Assembly (NCBI GenBank): GCA_963820025.1
Contig: CAWFYL010000005.1
Coordinates: forward strand, 19,757-83,756
From: an uncultured Acidimicrobiia bacterium
GTDB taxonomy: Bacteria > Actinomycetota > Acidimicrobiia > IMCC26256 > JAENVU01
Direction: 5' to 3'
Length of the DNA: 64,000 nt
Shown: one piece after another, positions 59,794-63,316 of the stretch
Position numbering within the stretch: the stretch's first letter is position 1
Layout: the number at the start of each line of letters is the position of its first letter
Position numbers and translations under genes: made by a program
Notes under the pieces: model-generated
Told to the model about the DNA's origin: nothing
What the model saw: only the letters and a program-made list of their open reading frames with translations
Databases searched by the model: none

Positions 59794-60951
59794 TCAAGGC
59801 CTCCGGGGATTGCTGAGCGCTCGAATGTGCGGGCTACGCCGAAAGCTTGATGATGAGAACAGCCCGCCACAGTCGTCACGGGCGGCGCAGCGATGGCATT
59901 CGGGAAGGAACTCGCTTTTCCAGTCGCTGATTGACTTCACTGCGAACTTGCGCACCGACGGTTCAAGAAGGCATAGCGGATGGTTGTAGATCATTGTGTG
60001 GACTCCCGCGACATCGAGTACGCGCACCGCGCGGCTGAGGTCGTGCTGGTACTCGTGCGGATCGATCCATACGAGGTCGACGTTTGGTCGTGCGAGCCCT
60101 GTCATCTCAAGGCCCATGAACGCCACTTGCTCGACGAACGGGAGGTTGCGGCGTATGAACTCGGCGATCGCGATGAGCTCGGGCGCCGTTTGCTTGTGGA
60201 CCACGACCCTGAGCTCGACGCGCTGGTCGAGTGCGATGAGGTTGAGGATCCCCAGGACGGTTTCGTCGAACGCGCCGTGTGCTTGCACGACGTAGTCGTG
60301 GAGGGATGGTTCTGCTCCGTAGAGCGGTATTCCGACCATCACTCGACTGCCGGCGGCACGAGCGTAGGACTCGGCGAAGGTGGCGTCTTCGAATCGCCGA
60401 CCGTTCGACAGAATGTGCACCTCTGCTGTTGGAAGCCGAGCGGTGCATCGAGCGAGCAATCGCAGGAAGTCTGCGCCGAAGATCGTGGGTTCTCCGCCGG
60501 TGAGGATCACTTCGGGAGTGTCGGCGGGGAGAAGCTCGATGAGGTTCTCGGCGCGCTGGAGCAGCCACATGTCGTCTCGCGTTTTCGGAGGTTGGGAGCA
60601 CATCAGGCAGTAGTTGTCGCACTGCTCGGTGATCAACACGCTGTTCTGGTGCGAGTTCGTTCGCCAGAGCACGCTGATCTCGATGCCGTCGGGCGAGACG
60701 GCGATCACATCGCCGGGCGAGAGATACGACAGTTCTGGTGGAAGCTCGACGTGTTCGGTACCCGGATCTAAGGGAGCTAGCCCCGTCTTCACGAGATATA
60801 GCGGATACCCAGCGGGTACCGGCCGTTGTTCCCTTACCAGCGCTGCGTGTCCCTCCGATGGGACGGAGTCGGCGTCGTCGATGACCCACAAGGATCGTCT
60901 GAGGTCTCGCGACAGAGTGACCGAGACTGAGCGTCCTCGCAGCGCGATCAA
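59794..60951 (-). CDS. hxsC: His-Xaa-Ser system radical SAM maturase HxsC
   Basis: TEQCDNYCLMCSQPP, TGGEPT, HILSNGR, HDYVVQ, MGLE.TG.A, SISDWK, C..C....CGG.F. Confidence 0.92.
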   Translation of the reverse strand: MIALRGRSVSVTLSRDLRRSLWVIDDADSVPSEGHAALVREQRPVPAGYPLYLVKTGLAPLDPGTEHVELPPELSYLSPGDVIAVSPDGIEISVLWRTNSHQNSVLITEQCDNYCLMCSQPPKTRDDMWLLQRAENLIELLPADTPEVILTGGEPTIFGADFLRLLARCTARLPTAEVHILSNGRRFEDATFAESYARAAGSRVMVGIPLYGAEPSLHDYVVQAHGAFDETVLGILNLIALDQRVELRVVVHKQTAPELIAIAEFIRRNLPFVEQVAFMGLEMTGLARPNVDLVWIDPHEYQHDLSRAVRVLDVAGVHTMIYNHPLCLLEPSVRKFAVKSISDWKSEFLPECHRCAARDDCGGLFSSSSFRRSPHIRALSNPRRP

Positions 60952-62399
60952 ATCGCAGCCCAGCGATCGAAGAGTTCGCGCGCAAACGGATCGGCTTCGT
61001 AGCGTGTCAGTATGCGCTCGAAGACGCCCATGTTTCGCGAGCAGAACTCGGACACCGCCTTGCGACCGAGGAAGTCACCGGCCGTCGCGTAGTGGTAGAC
61101 GGGGTCCGCGCCGCAGTAACACTCGAACGCGCAGTCCGAACACATTGGCGCGCTCCCGGTGAAGGATTGCTCGAGCGGTTCGAGGAGCTTCTCCGAGGTG
61201 AAGATGTCGCGGTAGGACGTGTCGGCGACGTGGCCGAGCCGGAAGGAGGTATCGCCCATCTCGGCGAGCATTCTGCCTTCGTCTGATGCGTACACGTTTC
61301 CGTCGTAGTTGTAGACGATCGCGCCGATTCCAATTCCCGACGGTGACATGAGATCGACGTAGCGCAGCGGGTCGTTCGTGAGGATCTTCCTTACTGCGAT
61401 CGTCGCGAACAGCTCCACCATGGGCTCGCCGCGGCGATTCAGATCGATGATGTAGTCGAGGCCGCGTTCGTAGAACGCGAGCCATCGCTCAATCCCATAG
61501 CCCGGCTTCGTGCTTCGGACGGCGAACCCGTACGGAGAAATTGGTCGTAGGAAGATCTCCGACAAGCCAGCCGCACGGTACGAGTCGACGATGTCCTCGA
61601 CGCTCGAAAGACTCGCATCGGTTGTGGTCATCAGGGCCGAGACCCGGTGAGGCCCCAGGCGGGACCGAATCGCTTCGATTCCGCGGATTGTCCGTTCCCA
61701 GCTGTCACCCCCAGGCCTTGGCCGGTTCGCGTTGTGGAGCTCCGCTGGACCGTCAAGTGATGCCGAAAAACTCAGCGCGTGGTCAGCTGCGAAGTCGAGT
61801 ACCTGATCGGTCAACACGGCGAGGTTGCTCGCGATCACGAACGACAGATCTTTCTGCGCGGCTTCGTTCAACGCCTCTGCCTCTTCGACGATTCGGCGAA
61901 CCAGACCGAAGTTCAGCAGCGGCTCGCCACCTTGAAACTCGATCTTGAGCGTTGGCGATGGACTCTGGAACGCGAGGGCTAGGGATCGGGCTGCAGTGTC
62001 CCAGGACATGTCGAAGGCCGTCTTGTTGGAGCTCTGCCGTGAAACTTGGCAGTAAGGGCAAGCGTGTTCACATCTGAGCGTGACTACGAAGATGTGCAGC
62101 CCAGTGAACTCCGGCAAGCGCCGGTACCGAGTGCGCGTCTTGAGCGCAAGCAGTTCGATTGGAACCGAGTCACCCTCTGCCATGGCAAAGTGCCTGGCTC
62201 GGAGCACGCGCAACAGGCTCTCGTCGACAAGCGACCTCGAAGTGAATCGCTGAAACTCGTCATCCGAGAGGAAGAGGTGCTCACCGACGAAGTTCGTCAG
62301 CAGAACGCGGCCGTCACCGAATCTGTGGAACCGGAACGGCAGAAGCACAAGAGCATCGTCGGCGCGGCGAAACTCGATCGGCTGATACTTGATGCTCAT
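60948..62399 (-). CDS. hxsB: His-Xaa-Ser system radical SAM maturase HxsB
   Basis: LLPFRF, LHIFVVTLRCEHACPYCQVSR, KIEFQGGEPL, YASDEGRML, CSDCAFECYCGADPV. Confidence 0.92.
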   Translation of the reverse strand: MSIKYQPIEFRRADDALVLLPFRFHRFGDGRVLLTNFVGEHLFLSDDEFQRFTSRSLVDESLLRVLRARHFAMAEGDSVPIELLALKTRTRYRRLPEFTGLHIFVVTLRCEHACPYCQVSRQSSNKTAFDMSWDTAARSLALAFQSPSPTLKIEFQGGEPLLNFGLVRRIVEEAEALNEAAQKDLSFVIASNLAVLTDQVLDFAADHALSFSASLDGPAELHNANRPRPGGDSWERTIRGIEAIRSRLGPHRVSALMTTTDASLSSVEDIVDSYRAAGLSEIFLRPISPYGFAVRSTKPGYGIERWLAFYERGLDYIIDLNRRGEPMVELFATIAVRKILTNDPLRYVDLMSPSGIGIGAIVYNYDGNVYASDEGRMLAEMGDTSFRLGHVADTSYRDIFTSEKLLEPLEQSFTGSAPMCSDCAFECYCGADPVYHYATAGDFLGRKAVSEFCSRNMGVFERILTRYEADPFARELFDRWAAI

Positions 62400-62722
62400 T
62401 CTGCGGTCGGTTCGATGAGGCCGGTGTTGGAGAAGGCAAGAGAGAGAATCAGGTTGCGCACGCCCGCAGTCTCCTCGCGGATCCGCTCCCGAAGCGATTG
62501 ATCCACGACTTCAGCCAAGAAGTCGTTGGTGTCAGCAGCCGGATCCGTCTGCGCGCCAAACCGCAGCACGCAGCGGTAGTTGGGGCCATCGCGGCTGAGC
62601 TCGAGCGCCAAGCGGTCCGCGAACCGGTAGGCAGCTCGTTGGATCGCGTCGGCTGAATGTGCGGACTCATCGAGGTACAGAACAACCTCGGAGACGTGGC
62701 TTCCTTGGCTCAAACTACTCAT
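62396..62722 (-). CDS. hxsD: His-Xaa-Ser system protein HxsD
   Basis: AIQRAAYRFAD, DQSLRERIREET..VRNLILSLAFS. Lies between the precursor and hxsB. Confidence 0.85.
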   Translation of the reverse strand: MSSLSQGSHVSEVVLYLDESAHSADAIQRAAYRFADRLALELSRDGPNYRCVLRFGAQTDPAADTNDFLAEVVDQSLRERIREETAGVRNLILSLAFSNTGLIEPTAE

Positions 62723-62773
62723 CGGTTCCGCGATGTTCTGCCACGGGCCGACTGCGTGACGCGGTCCCGCGCA

Positions 62774-63316
62774 TCATCCGCCGCGCGATTTCTTCCGTCG
62801 ACGGTAGAACCAGTAGCCGCCACCTCCAGCTGCCGCAACGCCCAACACGACGGCGCCGCCCCCCGCGTCGTCATTGCTCTGATTGTGGCTCGGCTGGGAC
62901 GGTTCGGTAGTTGTGTCTGGCTCCGTCACAGTCGTGTCGGGCACGGTGACCGTCGTTGTCGTTGTCGTCGGCGGTTGGGTTGTTGGCGGAGCGGTGGGCG
63001 GGGGCGGTGGAGGTGGAGGTGGTTGAGTGTCCACGGAACCGCCGCCGCCCGGTCCGACGCCTGAGACGTGAGACGCATGCGACGCGTGAGAAGCGTGAGA
63101 AGCGTGAGAAGCGTGCGCCGTTGGAGAGGCCGCATCCCGCACCTGCCGTGTGAGAGCGAGGAGTGCGGCGGACCGCTTCGTGCTGCGCTCCGAATCGACC
63201 AACGCGAACGACGAAGCCGCTGGGCTCGCGAGCTCGCGTGCTCCGGCCGCGGGGATTGATGGTGAGCCGAGCGCTGCGAGTGCCGCCGCGACCGGGACGA
63301 GGAACGCCCTCTTCAT
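62774..63316 (-). CDS. hxsA: His-Xaa-Ser repeat precursor protein (HxsA-like) with signal peptide, Pro/Thr stalk and C-terminal anchor
   Basis: (HAS)5-HVS encoded at 63062-63115, first gene of the hxs cluster. Confidence 0.85.
   Translation of the reverse strand: MKRAFLVPVAAALAALGSPSIPAAGARELASPAASSFALVDSERSTKRSAALLALTRQVRDAASPTAHASHASHASHASHASHVSGVGPGGGGSVDTQPPPPPPPPPTAPPTTQPPTTTTTTVTVPDTTVTEPDTTTEPSQPSHNQSNDDAGGGAVVLGVAAAGGGGYWFYRRRKKSRGG

What the first reader, a model, noticed from the sequence alone, without database searches (positions are those of the whole stretch)
59794..63316. His-Xaa-Ser radical-SAM system whose substrate looks like a surface-anchored protein
Seen: a compact cluster hxsA-hxsD-hxsB-hxsC with two CxxxCxxC radical SAM enzymes; hxsD, hxsB and hxsC overlap at their stop/start codons. 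The 180-aa precursor has these parts in order: a signal-peptide-like N-terminus, a leader-like LLALTRQ segment, six His-Xaa-Ser triplets, a Gly linker, a poly-Pro/Thr stalk of about 45 aa, a Gly-rich hydrophobic segment (GGGAVVLGVAAAGGGGYWFY) and a basic tail RRRKK. Established: HxsA-D are defined protein families, and other radical SAM enzymes cross-link three-residue aromatic-X-X motifs into cyclophanes. To my knowledge the Hxs product and role are unresolved. Inference: the repeat is modified in the cytoplasm, for example by His-to-Ser cross-links, then exported and displayed on a stalk. It could act as a metal-binding, adhesion or phage-interacting surface module rather than a diffusible RiPP. 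No protease or transporter gene lies in the cluster, which fits this.
Basis: partly seen in the sequence, partly recalled or inferred. Interest (0 to 1): 0.85.

Follow-up and report, generated by a model that had tools for sequence, protein, structure and literature searches.

The report
Membrane-tethered variant of HXS phage defence
This is a complete four-gene HXS anti-phage defence cluster, a kind of system first characterised in 2026 in E. coli, found here in a Gram-positive-type (actinobacterial) genome, where its His-X-Ser effector protein carries a proline/threonine stalk and a membrane anchor instead of the usual cell-wall-binding domain.

Summary
Four intact minus-strand genes, hxsA-hxsD-hxsB-hxsC (59794-63316), are present, and D/B and B/C overlap by 4 nt. 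HxsB, HxsC and HxsD pass their NCBIfam cut-offs; HxsA does not pass any of the four HxsA-type models.

Li et al., Nat Commun 2026 (PMC13128918) showed that HXS in E. coli is an anti-phage system. There, HxsA is matured by the radical-SAM enzymes, exported, anchored to peptidoglycan, and blocks phage DNA entry.

What differs here:
- HxsA is an HxsA2-like module (signal peptide, leader, six HxS) fused to a roughly 50-aa Pro/Thr stalk, a C-terminal hydrophobic segment and a basic tail. It has no peptidoglycan-binding domain.
- The only two relatives with HxsB at least 60% identical share this architecture (L021, L037). A tail anchor also arose separately in a distant clade, beside a peptidoglycan-binding paralogue.
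- The cluster lies on a low-GC 6.5-kb islet at tRNA-Leu.
- HxsB above its cut-off was found in no other genome of 401 sampled from the phylum.
- The repeats carry no basic residues, so the published electrostatic DNA-binding model fits poorly.

Verdict: a new variant of a known kind, of moderate interest.

The parts
62774..63316 (-). hxsA: 180-aa HxS-repeat effector precursor (HxsA2-like N-terminal module plus stalk plus tail anchor)
   Evidence: ORF. It is below all HxsA-type cut-offs but matches HxsA2 profile positions 1-95 of 96 and TIGR03979 positions 11-117 of 190. It is the only tandem HxS run in the genome.
63242..63316 (-). HxsA residues 1-25: signal-peptide-like N-terminus (MKR, hydrophobic core, AGA before R26)
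   Evidence: Kyte-Doolittle maximum 2.04 at residues 4-18. No SignalP was available, so the call is heuristic.
63116..63241 (-). HxsA residues 26-67: leader with the hydrophobic LLAL motif (residues 51-54)
   Evidence: Anchored listing of 61 HxsA shows a hydrophobic x-L-L type motif 13-19 residues before the first HxS across the family. AF2 predicts a helix at 42-61, at low confidence.
63062..63115 (-). HxsA residues 68-85: six His-Xaa-Ser triplets (X = A five times, V once), encoded by a 9-nt tandem repeat
   Evidence: TRF reports a 9-nt unit, 5.4 copies, at 63067-63115.
62867..63061 (-). HxsA residues 86-150: Gly linker and Pro/Thr-rich acidic stalk
   Evidence: Residues 99-143 are 73% P+T. 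Net charge of residues 99-150 is -6.
62777..62866 (-). HxsA residues 151-180: Gly/Ala/Val hydrophobic segment (151-171) and basic tail RRRKKSRGG
   Evidence: Kyte-Doolittle 15-mer mean 1.53 at residue 151. The match to the TM-plus-tail part of TIGR01167 (profile positions 11-34 of 34) scores 17.9 bits against a cut-off of 15.9. There is no L[PA]xTG motif. The same kind of tail is present in L021, L037, L085 and L088.
62396..62722 (-). hxsD: small accessory protein
   Evidence: TIGR03976, 61.1 bits against a cut-off of 50. D74 is present in at least 90% and R78 in all of 22 aligned HxsD sequences. The AF2 model has pLDDT 89.4.
60948..62399 (-). hxsB: radical SAM/SPASM-type maturase
   Evidence: TIGR03978, 580.7 bits against a cut-off of 370. 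Cys 110/114/117 and 420/423/427/429/453.
59794..60951 (-). hxsC: second radical SAM maturase
   Evidence: TIGR03977, 379.3 bits against a cut-off of 267.9. C111, C115, C118, C327, C352, C355 and C361 are invariant in 53 aligned HxsC sequences.
58674..58732 (+). 59-bp direct copy of the 3' part of tRNA-Leu: left border of the islet that carries hxs. The right-border copy lies beyond the window end, at window-equivalent 65264-65322.
   Evidence: Self-blastn: 100% identity over 59 bp to 52686-52744; the right copy is 96.6% identical.
52659..52744 (+). tRNA-Leu(taa): the integration site at the head of a tandem array of low-GC islets
   Evidence: ARAGORN, repeats and GC profile.

Best explanation
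What it is. The locus is a complete, horizontally acquired HXS-type anti-phage defence system (hxsA-D-B-C) in an actinobacterium.

Proposed mechanism:
1. HxsA is made as a precursor. Its leader and six HxS repeats are recognised and covalently modified in the cytoplasm by the radical SAM enzymes HxsB and HxsC together with HxsD. In E. coli this step comprises N-terminal processing and a +8 Da change in the last repeat.
2. The protein is exported through its N-terminal signal sequence.
3. The C-terminal hydrophobic segment stays in the membrane, with the RRRKK tail in the cytoplasm.
4. The modified HxS array therefore sits outside the membrane, on an extended Pro/Thr stalk about 50-65 residues long that reaches into the wall.
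5. There it interferes with incoming phage DNA or the phage's ejection machinery.

Why an anchor. The stalk plus tail anchor takes the place of the peptidoglycan-binding domain of the E. coli effector. It is the retention device a cell without an outer membrane would need, because the nearest (HxsA2-type) relatives make only a short unanchored form.

Shown here: gene identities, HxsA anatomy, the recurrence of the anchor in relatives, and the island context.

Inferred: the modification chemistry, the export route, the membrane topology, and anti-phage activity in this host.
For: 1. System identity. HxsB, HxsC and HxsD pass their curated NCBIfam cut-offs. The catalytic and auxiliary Cys are present and invariant across 53 HxsC sequences. 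Of the HxsD residues whose E. coli equivalents are needed for activity, R78 is invariant and D74 is present in at least 90% of 22 sequences (paper section read).

2. Published function. E. coli HXS restricted 110 of 113 phages. All four genes were required. HxsA is periplasmic and peptidoglycan-anchored, and its signal peptide and peptidoglycan-binding domain are both needed (PMC13128918, sections read).

3. Anchor. HxsA has a signal-like N-terminus, a C-terminal hydrophobic segment and a basic tail. The same plan (signal, HxS, P/T-rich linker, hydrophobic segment, basic tail) occurs in the only two loci with HxsB at least 60% identical: L021, a Streptosporangiaceae MAG, and L037, both 67% GC.

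4. Phylogeny. On the HxsB tree these three group together (SH-aLRT 87) inside a 13-row clade (99) whose other members mostly have short HxsA.

5. Independent origin. A tail anchor also occurs in a distant clade (L085/86, L088-90), directly beside a paralogue with the same core and a PG_binding_1 domain. The two C-termini therefore act as alternative modules on one core.

6. Linker length. About 65 residues (window), about 85 (L021) and about 35 (L037) in the high-GC loci, against about 10 in the 37-38% GC loci.

7. Accessory, mobile character.
- The locus is 61-62% GC in a 70.5% GC genome.
- It is flanked by 59-bp copies of the tRNA-Leu 3' end.
- HxsB above cut-off was found in 1 of 61 relatives (the window's own genome only), 1 of 401 phylum-sampled genomes, and 1 of 301 genomes in the order of L021's genome.
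- HxsB homologues occur on 415 plasmid records.

8. Host envelope. The genome has 3 sortase genes, and nearby genes carry mycothiol-linked domains. This points to an actinobacterial cell with a single membrane.
Against: 1. HxsA fails every curated HxsA-type cut-off.

2. The hydrophobic segment is Gly-rich and only moderately hydrophobic (15-mer mean 1.53; it failed my >1.2 whole-segment filter). AF2 gives a helix at 155-177 only at pLDDT about 44-53. No SignalP or TMHMM-type predictor was available.

3. The repeats carry no Arg or Lys (X = AAAAAV). The ectodomain is net acidic: -5 for residues 26-150 and -8 for residues 61-150, with 7 His. The published idea that basic HxS repeats bind DNA electrostatically therefore does not transfer easily. 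34 of 61 HxsA sequences have no R/K at any X position.

4. The last repeat reads SHVSG. In E. coli the modified motif is SHRSS, and its final Ser was required. A Gly follows the last repeat in 13 of 59 homologues and a Ser in 41 of 59.

5. Most homologues have no anchor.

6. Anti-phage activity has been shown only for one E. coli operon, whose HxsB is a distant relative. All plasmid hits, including 318 Klebsiella records, are below 60% identical.

7. No promoter-like or terminator-like site was found in 59000-64000 by the simple scans.
Confidence: 0.68

Rival explanations
1. The C-terminal hydrophobic segment plus basic tail is a cleaved sorting signal, not a permanent anchor. A sortase or similar enzyme would remove it and link HxsA covalently to peptidoglycan.
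For: The tail matches the TM-plus-basic part of the LPXTG_anchor model TIGR01167 at 17.9 bits, above its cut-off of 15.9. The genome encodes 3 sortases. Wall attachment would mirror the peptidoglycan anchoring of E. coli HxsA.
Against: The match covers profile positions 11-34 only, so it does not include the motif. HxsA has no L[PA]xTG, and no conserved motif precedes the hydrophobic segment in L021 or L037. The two sortase-type tails found in this genome both carry LPFTG (2 of 59 frames that end in a TM plus basic tail).
Confidence: 0.08
2. HxsA is a classical RiPP precursor. The modified HxS core would be cut out and released as a small soluble peptide (antibiotic, signal or metallophore), and the stalk and tail would play no part in the final product.
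For: 28 of 60 unique HxS ORFs, including most of the 13-row clade around the window, end within 6 residues of the repeats. HxsB shows weak similarity to many peptide-modifying radical SAM/SPASM maturases. In E. coli the N-terminus is removed during maturation.
Against: No protease or exporter gene lies in the islet. In E. coli the active product is the protein spanning about residue 48 to residue 214, including its anchoring domain. The stalk and tail are kept in 3 of 3 members of the window's subclade.
Confidence: 0.1
3. The displayed His/Ser array has a role other than defence at the cell surface, for example metal capture or buffering, or adhesion. The E. coli defence phenotype would then not carry over to this variant.
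For: The array has seven His residues, no basic residues and an acidic stalk, so DNA binding by charge is unlikely. The system is very distant from the tested E. coli operon.
Against: No metal transporter or regulator was found among the 17 neighbouring ORFs scanned with Pfam. The sporadic, island-borne distribution is what accessory defence genes typically show. The HxsB/C/D machinery is conserved.
Confidence: 0.1
4. The cluster is an inactive remnant on a decaying island.
For: HxsA is below all family cut-offs. No integrase was found among the 17 island ORFs scanned. No promoter-like site was found.
Against: All four frames are intact with coupled overlaps. Every invariant Cys of HxsC is present. 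HxsB scores 580.7 bits over its full length.
Confidence: 0.04

Closest known systems
E. coli HXS anti-phage system (Li et al., Nat Commun 2026, PMC13128918)
   Same: The same four families are present (HxsA, B, C, D). There are two radical SAM enzymes, each with an auxiliary Cys cluster. The HxsD D/R motif is kept. HxsA has an N-terminal signal sequence, a leader, tandem HxS repeats and a C-terminal envelope-retention module.
   Different: - Gene order is A-D-B-C here; D-B-C-A was reported for 99.6% of systems.
- HxsA here has no peptidoglycan-binding domain. It carries a Pro/Thr stalk and a tail anchor in its place.
- Six repeats with X = Ala/Val here; five repeats rich in basic residues in E. 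coli.
- The last repeat is SHVSG, not SHRSS.
- The host is an actinobacterium; 99.7% of the 10,369 HxsA proteins the authors collected are from Pseudomonadota.
- HxsA is below the TIGR03979 cut-off.
HxsA2-type clusters, e.g. hxsA2-hxsD-hxsB-hxsC on Paraburkholderia phenoliruptrix plasmid pSYMBR3459 (NC_018696.1, annotation seen)
   Same: Same A-D-B-C order. HxsB is 54.9% identical. The window's HxsA aligns to HxsA2 profile positions 1-95 of 96. On the HxsB tree the window lies in a clade of mostly short, HxsA2-like forms.
   Different: HxsA2 is about 95 aa and ends just after the repeats. The window's protein adds about 95 residues (linker, stalk, hydrophobic segment, basic tail) and scores 30.4 bits against the cut-off of 48.
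Cyclophane-forming radical SAM/SPASM peptide maturases (XyeB, GrrM/OscB, FxsB, YhhB; names as given by NCBIfam)
   Same: They share the radical SAM core and a C-terminal Cys-rich domain, and they act on short repeated three-residue motifs. The last point is recalled from the literature and was not checked here.
   Different: HxsB reaches only 32-64 bits on these models, against cut-offs of 310-450. The Hxs chemistry (+8 Da) is not a simple -2 Da cross-link. The product is an anchored protein, not a released peptide.
Sortase substrates and other tail-anchored surface proteins of Gram-positive bacteria
   Same: An N-terminal signal peptide, a Pro/Thr-rich wall-spanning region, and a C-terminal hydrophobic segment with a basic tail. 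The TIGR01167 match is above its cut-off.
   Different: There is no LPXTG or LAXTG motif. This genome's own sortase-type tails carry LPFTG.

Membership tests
HXS / His-Xaa-Ser system (NCBIfam Hxs models; Li et al. 2026) | HxsB radical SAM maturase above the TIGR03978 cut-off | tested here: met
   580.7 bits against 370, profile positions 1-466 of 466.
HXS / His-Xaa-Ser system | HxsC radical SAM maturase above the TIGR03977 cut-off | tested here: met
   379.3 bits against 267.9.
HXS / His-Xaa-Ser system | HxsD above the TIGR03976 cut-off, with the conserved D and R of the LLNDYxLRE-type motif | tested here: met
   61.1 bits against 50. D74 is present in at least 90% and R78 in all of 22 aligned sequences.
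HXS / His-Xaa-Ser system | HxsA above a curated HxsA, HxsA2, HxsA3 or HxsA4 cut-off | tested here: not met
   40 bits against 121.65; 30.4 against 48; 18.7 against 65; 22.9 against 55.
HXS / His-Xaa-Ser system | Adjacent protein with an N-terminal signal sequence followed by tandem His-Xaa-Ser repeats | tested here: met
   Six tandem HxS at residues 68-85, after a signal-like N-terminus. It is the only such run in the genome.
HXS / His-Xaa-Ser system (E. coli type) | Peptidoglycan-binding domain in HxsA | tested here: not met
   No PG_binding_1 match. TIGR03979 profile positions 134-186 are not matched.
HXS / His-Xaa-Ser system (E. coli type) | Gene order hxsD-B-C-A | tested here: not met
   The order here is A-D-B-C, as in 36 of 60 unique HxS ORFs in the loci I collected and in the annotated hxsA2 cluster.
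HXS / His-Xaa-Ser system | Radical-SAM-dependent maturation of HxsA (N-terminal processing, +8 Da) and restriction of phage DNA entry | not testable with these tools
   These are experimental properties, shown only for the E. coli operon.
Sortase-anchored LPXTG/LAXTG surface proteins | LPXTG-type pentapeptide immediately before the C-terminal hydrophobic segment | tested here: not met
   No L[PA]xTG in HxsA. The TIGR01167 match covers profile positions 11-34 only.
Sortase-anchored LPXTG/LAXTG surface proteins | C-terminal hydrophobic segment followed by a basic tail | tested here: met
   Residues 151-171 followed by RRRKKSRGG. TIGR01167 scores 17.9 bits against 15.9.
Cyclophane-forming radical SAM/SPASM RiPP maturases (three-residue motif type) | Maturase above the cut-off of XyeB, GrrM/OscB, FxsB or YhhB models | tested here: not met
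   31.8 bits against 450; 60.3 against 310; 46.4 against 370; 64.4 against 445.

The most novel reading that the evidence does not exclude
HXS effectors may be a modular family. One radical-SAM-matured His/Ser array would be delivered to different envelope sites by interchangeable C-terminal modules: none, peptidoglycan-binding, TPR/Sel1, unknown domains of about 100-250 aa, or a tail anchor. The actinobacterial form would be a membrane-tethered, stalk-displayed gatekeeper suited to a cell with no outer membrane. Its array has no basic residues and its stalk is acidic, so it cannot work by the published electrostatic DNA-binding mechanism. That would mean the modified HxS array blocks phage genome entry in another way, for example by engaging the phage ejection or tape-measure channel at the membrane, or through metal-bridged His contacts.
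Probability: 0.3. Interest if true: 0.7.

Novelty: new variant of a known kind. Interest (0 to 1): 0.45.

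Why it matters
HXS is so far the only defence system reported to block phage DNA ejection, and it has been studied only in E. 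coli, where the effector sits in the periplasm bound to peptidoglycan.

A variant from a bacterium with no outer membrane shows how the same machinery may be adapted to a different envelope, using a tether and a stalk. It also gives a natural test of the proposed mechanism. If a repeat array with no basic residues still blocks phages, simple electrostatic capture of DNA cannot be the general explanation.

The finding that anchor modules are swapped on a constant core, including two differently anchored paralogues side by side in one locus, suggests experiments on where in the envelope the effector has to sit.

The system was found in no other sampled genome of the phylum. A working actinobacterial version could therefore be useful for making industrial actinomycetes resistant to phages.

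Tried and rejected
- Complex prediction, HxsC (53-row alignment) with HxsD (22-row alignment): verdict 'no answer'. It counts neither for nor against binding.
- HxsD structure. The AF2 model is confident (pLDDT 89.4, order strand-helix-strand-strand-helix-helix). Foldseek against PDB gave no match at E <= 0.001. VIA-align wide gave a best Z of 8.2 among generic two-layer alpha/beta folds, which is at the background level the tool itself states. No fold assignment is made. The idea that HxsD is a PqqD-like leader-binding element found no support and is not excluded.
- HxsA structure. AF2 pLDDT is 53, too low for more than a hint of helices at residues 42-61 and 155-177.
- The protein-atlas search with HxsA: no usable hit.
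- The search for homologous proteins with HxsA residues 20-98: 2278 candidates, none at E <= 0.001. I could not size the stalk-plus-anchor subfamily in the large protein collection, and I spent no further searches on this low-complexity query.
- tblastn with HxsA found nothing in L021, L037, L022 or L038 at E <= 1e-3, although HxS ORFs are present there. HxS ORFs were therefore found by regular expression.
- PADLOC (2023) has no Hxs model. It gave only weak viperin-like radical SAM hits for HxsB and HxsC and nothing for four neighbouring ORFs.
- The promoter and terminator scan of 59000-64000 found 0 sites of each kind.
- My lax hydrophobicity flag also marked the L025/L056 and L033 proteins. 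I rejected these because 150 and 135 residues follow the hydrophobic stretch, inside globular domains. L029 has a hydrophobic segment followed by 203 residues and is counted separately.
- 30 of 95 loci had no HxS ORF in the DNA held. Most of these contigs are short, so this does not show absence.
- The neighbours of hxs in the window (the HIRAN-like ORF and the 147-aa ORF) are not conserved next to hxs in L021, L037, L022 or L038, so I do not count them as part of the system.
- No integrase was found among the 17 island ORFs scanned.
- The HxsB tree is the quick IQ-TREE version; the careful search did not finish in the time allowed.
- Supplementary files of PMC13128918 were not seen. Its supplementary figures and the data behind its Fig. 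5d may already list HxsA forms with other C-termini.

Full report
**Observation.** hxsD/hxsB overlap as ATGA and hxsB/hxsC as TTGA. The TTG start of hxsC is supported because the nearest HxsC relatives align from residue 1.

Against NCBIfam:
- HxsB scores 580.7 bits on TIGR03978 (cut-off 370).
- HxsC scores 379.3 on TIGR03977 (cut-off 267.9).
- HxsD scores 61.1 on TIGR03976 (cut-off 50).
- HxsA passes no HxsA-type model: TIGR03979 40 against 121.65; HxsA2 30.4 against 48; HxsA4 22.9 against 55; HxsA3 18.7 against 65.

Each radical SAM enzyme has one CxxxCxxC and a C-terminal Cys cluster. Those of HxsC are invariant across 53 aligned homologues.

The HxsA anatomy is as described:
- residues 1-25: signal-like N-terminus;
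- residues 26-67: leader containing LLALTRQ;
- residues 68-85: six HxS triplets, encoded by a 9-nt tandem repeat;
- residues 86-94: Gly linker;
- residues 99-143: a stretch that is 73% Pro+Thr;
- residues 151-171: Gly/Ala/Val hydrophobic segment;
- residues 172-180: RRRKKSRGG.

This is the only run of three or more tandem HxS in any frame of the 4.42-Mb genome.

**What is already known.** Two full-text searches found one directly relevant study and its preprint: Li et al., Nat Commun 2026 (PMC13128918). I read its abstract and outline, its sections on activity, localisation, maturation and distribution, and its discussion, and ran a term search on it. I did not see its supplements. Its main findings are these:
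- An E. coli hxsD-B-C-A operon restricted 110 of 113 coliphages without blocking adsorption and without abortive infection. It does so by preventing entry of phage DNA.
- HxsA is the effector. It has a signal peptide (residues 1-22), five HxS repeats and a peptidoglycan-binding domain, and both the signal peptide and that domain are needed.
- HxsB, HxsC and HxsD are all required for an unusual N-terminal cleavage and for a +8 Da modification mapped to SHRSS in the last repeat.
- HxsC and HxsD pull down together.
- The authors propose that the basic repeats bind DNA electrostatically.
- They report 99.7% of 10,369 HxsA proteins in Pseudomonadota, and the order D-B-C-A in 99.6% of systems.
- The main text contains no occurrence of 'transmembrane', 'Gram-positive', 'Actinobacteria' or 'Actinomycetota'.

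**Host and context.** The genome is 70.5% GC. The region from about 53,000 to 72,000 is 61-69% GC, and the hxs genes are the lowest at 61-62%.

The 59-bp 3' part of tRNA-Leu(taa) (the tRNA is at 52659-52744) is repeated in direct orientation three times:
- at 55056-55125 (93% identity);
- at 58674-58732 (100%);
- at window-equivalent 65264-65322 (96.6%).

hxs therefore lies on a 6.5-kb islet in a tandem array of islets at this tRNA. The islet also holds a 147-aa ORF with no Pfam family and a 390-aa ORF with a weak HIRAN match. Neither of those two ORFs lies next to hxs in the nearest relatives. No integrase, protease or transporter appeared among the 17 ORFs scanned.

Mycothiol-linked domains (MST, MDMPI_N) in nearby genes and three sortase genes in the genome point to an actinobacterium. 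That mycothiol is an actinobacterial trait is recalled knowledge.

HxsB above its cut-off was found in:
- 1 of 61 relatives, the window's own genome only. It was found in 0 of 10 same-genus genomes, which are 56-98% complete.
- 1 of 401 genomes sampled from the phylum.
- 1 of 301 genomes from the order of L021's genome, that genome only.

HxsB homologues, all below 60% identical, occur on 415 plasmid records (318 Klebsiella; 328 conjugative) and on 2 phage records. The system is therefore a rare, horizontally acquired accessory in this phylum.

**HxsA diversity.** Scans with the window's HxsB returned 15 genome loci and 80 metagenome loci. 65 of these 95 loci contain at least one ORF with three or more tandem HxS. 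That makes 73 ORFs, of which 60 are unique. The N-terminal plan is constant: a signal-like start, a hydrophobic motif 13-19 residues before the first HxS, and then the repeats. The C-terminus is not constant:
- 28 of 60 end within 6 residues of the repeats.
- 9 of 61 (the window's HxsA is included in this count) carry PG_binding_1.
- 5 carry TPR or Sel1 repeats.
- Several carry domains of about 90-250 aa with no Pfam match.
- 4 of 60 unique ORFs (7 loci) end in a hydrophobic segment plus a basic tail.
- One (L029) has a hydrophobic segment followed by 203 residues.

The tail-anchored forms fall in two places on the HxsB tree (quick IQ-TREE, 70 rows).
- First group: the window, L021 (a Streptosporangiaceae MAG, HxsB 63% identical) and L037 (62% identical). 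They group together (SH-aLRT 87) inside a 13-row clade (99) whose other members mostly have short HxsA. All three are high-GC, use the order A-D-B-C and have P/T-rich linkers of about 35-85 residues.
- Second group: L085/86 and L088-90 (37-38% GC). They sit in a distant clade. There the tail-anchored HxsA has a linker of only about 10 residues and lies directly beside a paralogue with the same leader and core but a PG_binding_1 domain.

The tail anchor was therefore gained at least twice, and it is interchangeable with the peptidoglycan-binding module on one core.

The annotated hxsA2-hxsD-hxsB-hxsC cluster on a Paraburkholderia plasmid (HxsB 54.9% identical), together with the full-length though sub-threshold match to the HxsA2 model, identifies the window's HxsA as an HxsA2-type module with a C-terminal extension.

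**Mechanism proposed.** By homology, HxsB, HxsC and HxsD modify the leader-bearing precursor in the cytoplasm, and the signal sequence then directs export. The basic tail following the hydrophobic segment should stay cytoplasmic. This rests on the positive-inside rule, which is recalled textbook knowledge. The result would be a type I tethered protein whose modified HxS array sits at the end of a stalk of up to about 16-20 nm if fully extended (52-65 residues at 0.31 nm per residue; the rise per residue is a recalled value).

In a cell with no outer membrane, a short HxsA2-type product would diffuse away, so a tether is a plausible adaptation. This step is inference.

Sortase-mediated wall attachment is less likely:
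- HxsA has no L[PA]xTG.
- The TIGR01167 match omits the motif positions.
- The genome's own sortase-type tails carry LPFTG (2 of 59 frames ending in a TM plus basic tail).

**Points against a simple transfer of the E. coli model.**
- The repeats have Ala or Val at X and no basic residue. The ectodomain is net acidic: -5 over residues 26-150 and -8 over residues 61-150, with 7 His. 34 of 61 HxsA sequences have no R/K at any X position. Electrostatic capture of DNA is thus unlikely to be the general mechanism.
- The last repeat is SHVSG, not SHRSS. A Gly follows the last repeat in 13 of 59 homologues and a Ser in 41 of 59.
- The hydrophobic segment is Gly-rich and only moderately hydrophobic, and AF2 supports a helix there only at low confidence.
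- No dedicated signal-peptide or TM predictor was available.

**Other attempts.**
- The complex prediction for HxsC and HxsD gave no answer.
- HxsD folds confidently but matches no known fold above background.
- The protein atlas search and the large protein-collection search gave nothing usable for HxsA.

**Verdict.** Its general role is now known from E. coli, so the finding is not categorically new. It is a new variant:
- it is from an actinobacterium;
- it is island-borne;
- its gene order is A-D-B-C;
- its HxsA swaps the peptidoglycan-binding domain for a stalk and a tail anchor;
- its repeat array carries no basic residues.

Interest is moderate (0.45). The variant offers a test of the published mechanism and shows how the system may be adapted to an envelope with no outer membrane.

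Noticed in passing
window 52659-58732, continuing to window-equivalent 65322 (L036 about 2021-2079): Tandem array of three low-GC islets at tRNA-Leu(taa), each ending in a copy of the tRNA's 59-bp 3' part (55056-55125, 58674-58732, 65264-65322). About 140 bp upstream of the last two copies is also similar (58540-58738 against 65129-65328, 83%). No integrase was found among the 17 ORFs scanned.
   Followed up: partly
window 55030-55115: ARAGORN calls a tRNA-SeC(tca) here. The stretch is 93-94% identical to the 3' part of tRNA-Leu and lies at an islet junction, so it is probably a hybrid remnant of an integration site, not a selenocysteine tRNA.
   Followed up: partly
window 57707-58498 and window-equivalent 77435-78226 (outside the window): A 792-bp inverted duplicate at 93% identity that covers a 253-aa methyltransferase-like ORF (Methyltransf_11).
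   Followed up: no
window 63470-64000, continuing to window-equivalent 64642 (L036:227-1399, minus strand): A 390-aa ORF directly upstream of hxsA on the same strand and in the same islet. It has a weak C-terminal HIRAN match (23.3 bits, cut-off 24.7) and no PADLOC hit. It is not conserved next to hxs in L021, L037, L022 or L038.
   Followed up: partly
L085:268-1323 and L088:3117-4193 (also L086, L089, L090): Two adjacent HxsA paralogues with nearly the same leader and HxS core. One ends in a PG_binding_1 domain. The other ends in a short Gly/Ser linker, a hydrophobic segment and a basic tail.
   Followed up: yes
L023:4291-5325, L025:114-1097, L046, L048, L050, L052: An Acidobacteriota-associated clade whose HxsA carries a conserved C-terminal domain of about 235-250 aa with no Pfam match. 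Other clades carry unknown domains of about 90-125 aa (L045, L060, L065, L067, L068).
   Followed up: no
L029:4625-5650: A Bacteroidaceae HxsA with a strongly hydrophobic segment right after a Gly/Asn-rich linker, followed by a Lys-rich region of about 200 aa with no Pfam match. It may be a bitopic form with a cytoplasmic domain.
   Followed up: no
N-termini of HxsA in window, L037, L038, L039, L042, L022: A recurring [KR][KR]-x-F-L-x-P motif at the start of the signal-like region. It resembles the twin-arginine export consensus (recalled) but has KR, RK or GR in place of RR in these sequences. The E. coli paper reports that HxsA export is non-canonical.
   Followed up: no
hits H16 (KF114877.1, Leptospira phage LE1) and H15 (Leptospira interrogans plasmid): An annotated hxsB is carried by a Leptospira phage/plasmid-like replicon (43.6% identical to the window's HxsB). 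This is one of only 2 phage records with a match.
   Followed up: no
window 62396-62722 (HxsD): HxsD gives a confident AF2 model (pLDDT 89.4; strand-helix-strand-strand-helix-helix). No solved structure matches it above background, so its fold class and role remain open.
   Followed up: partly
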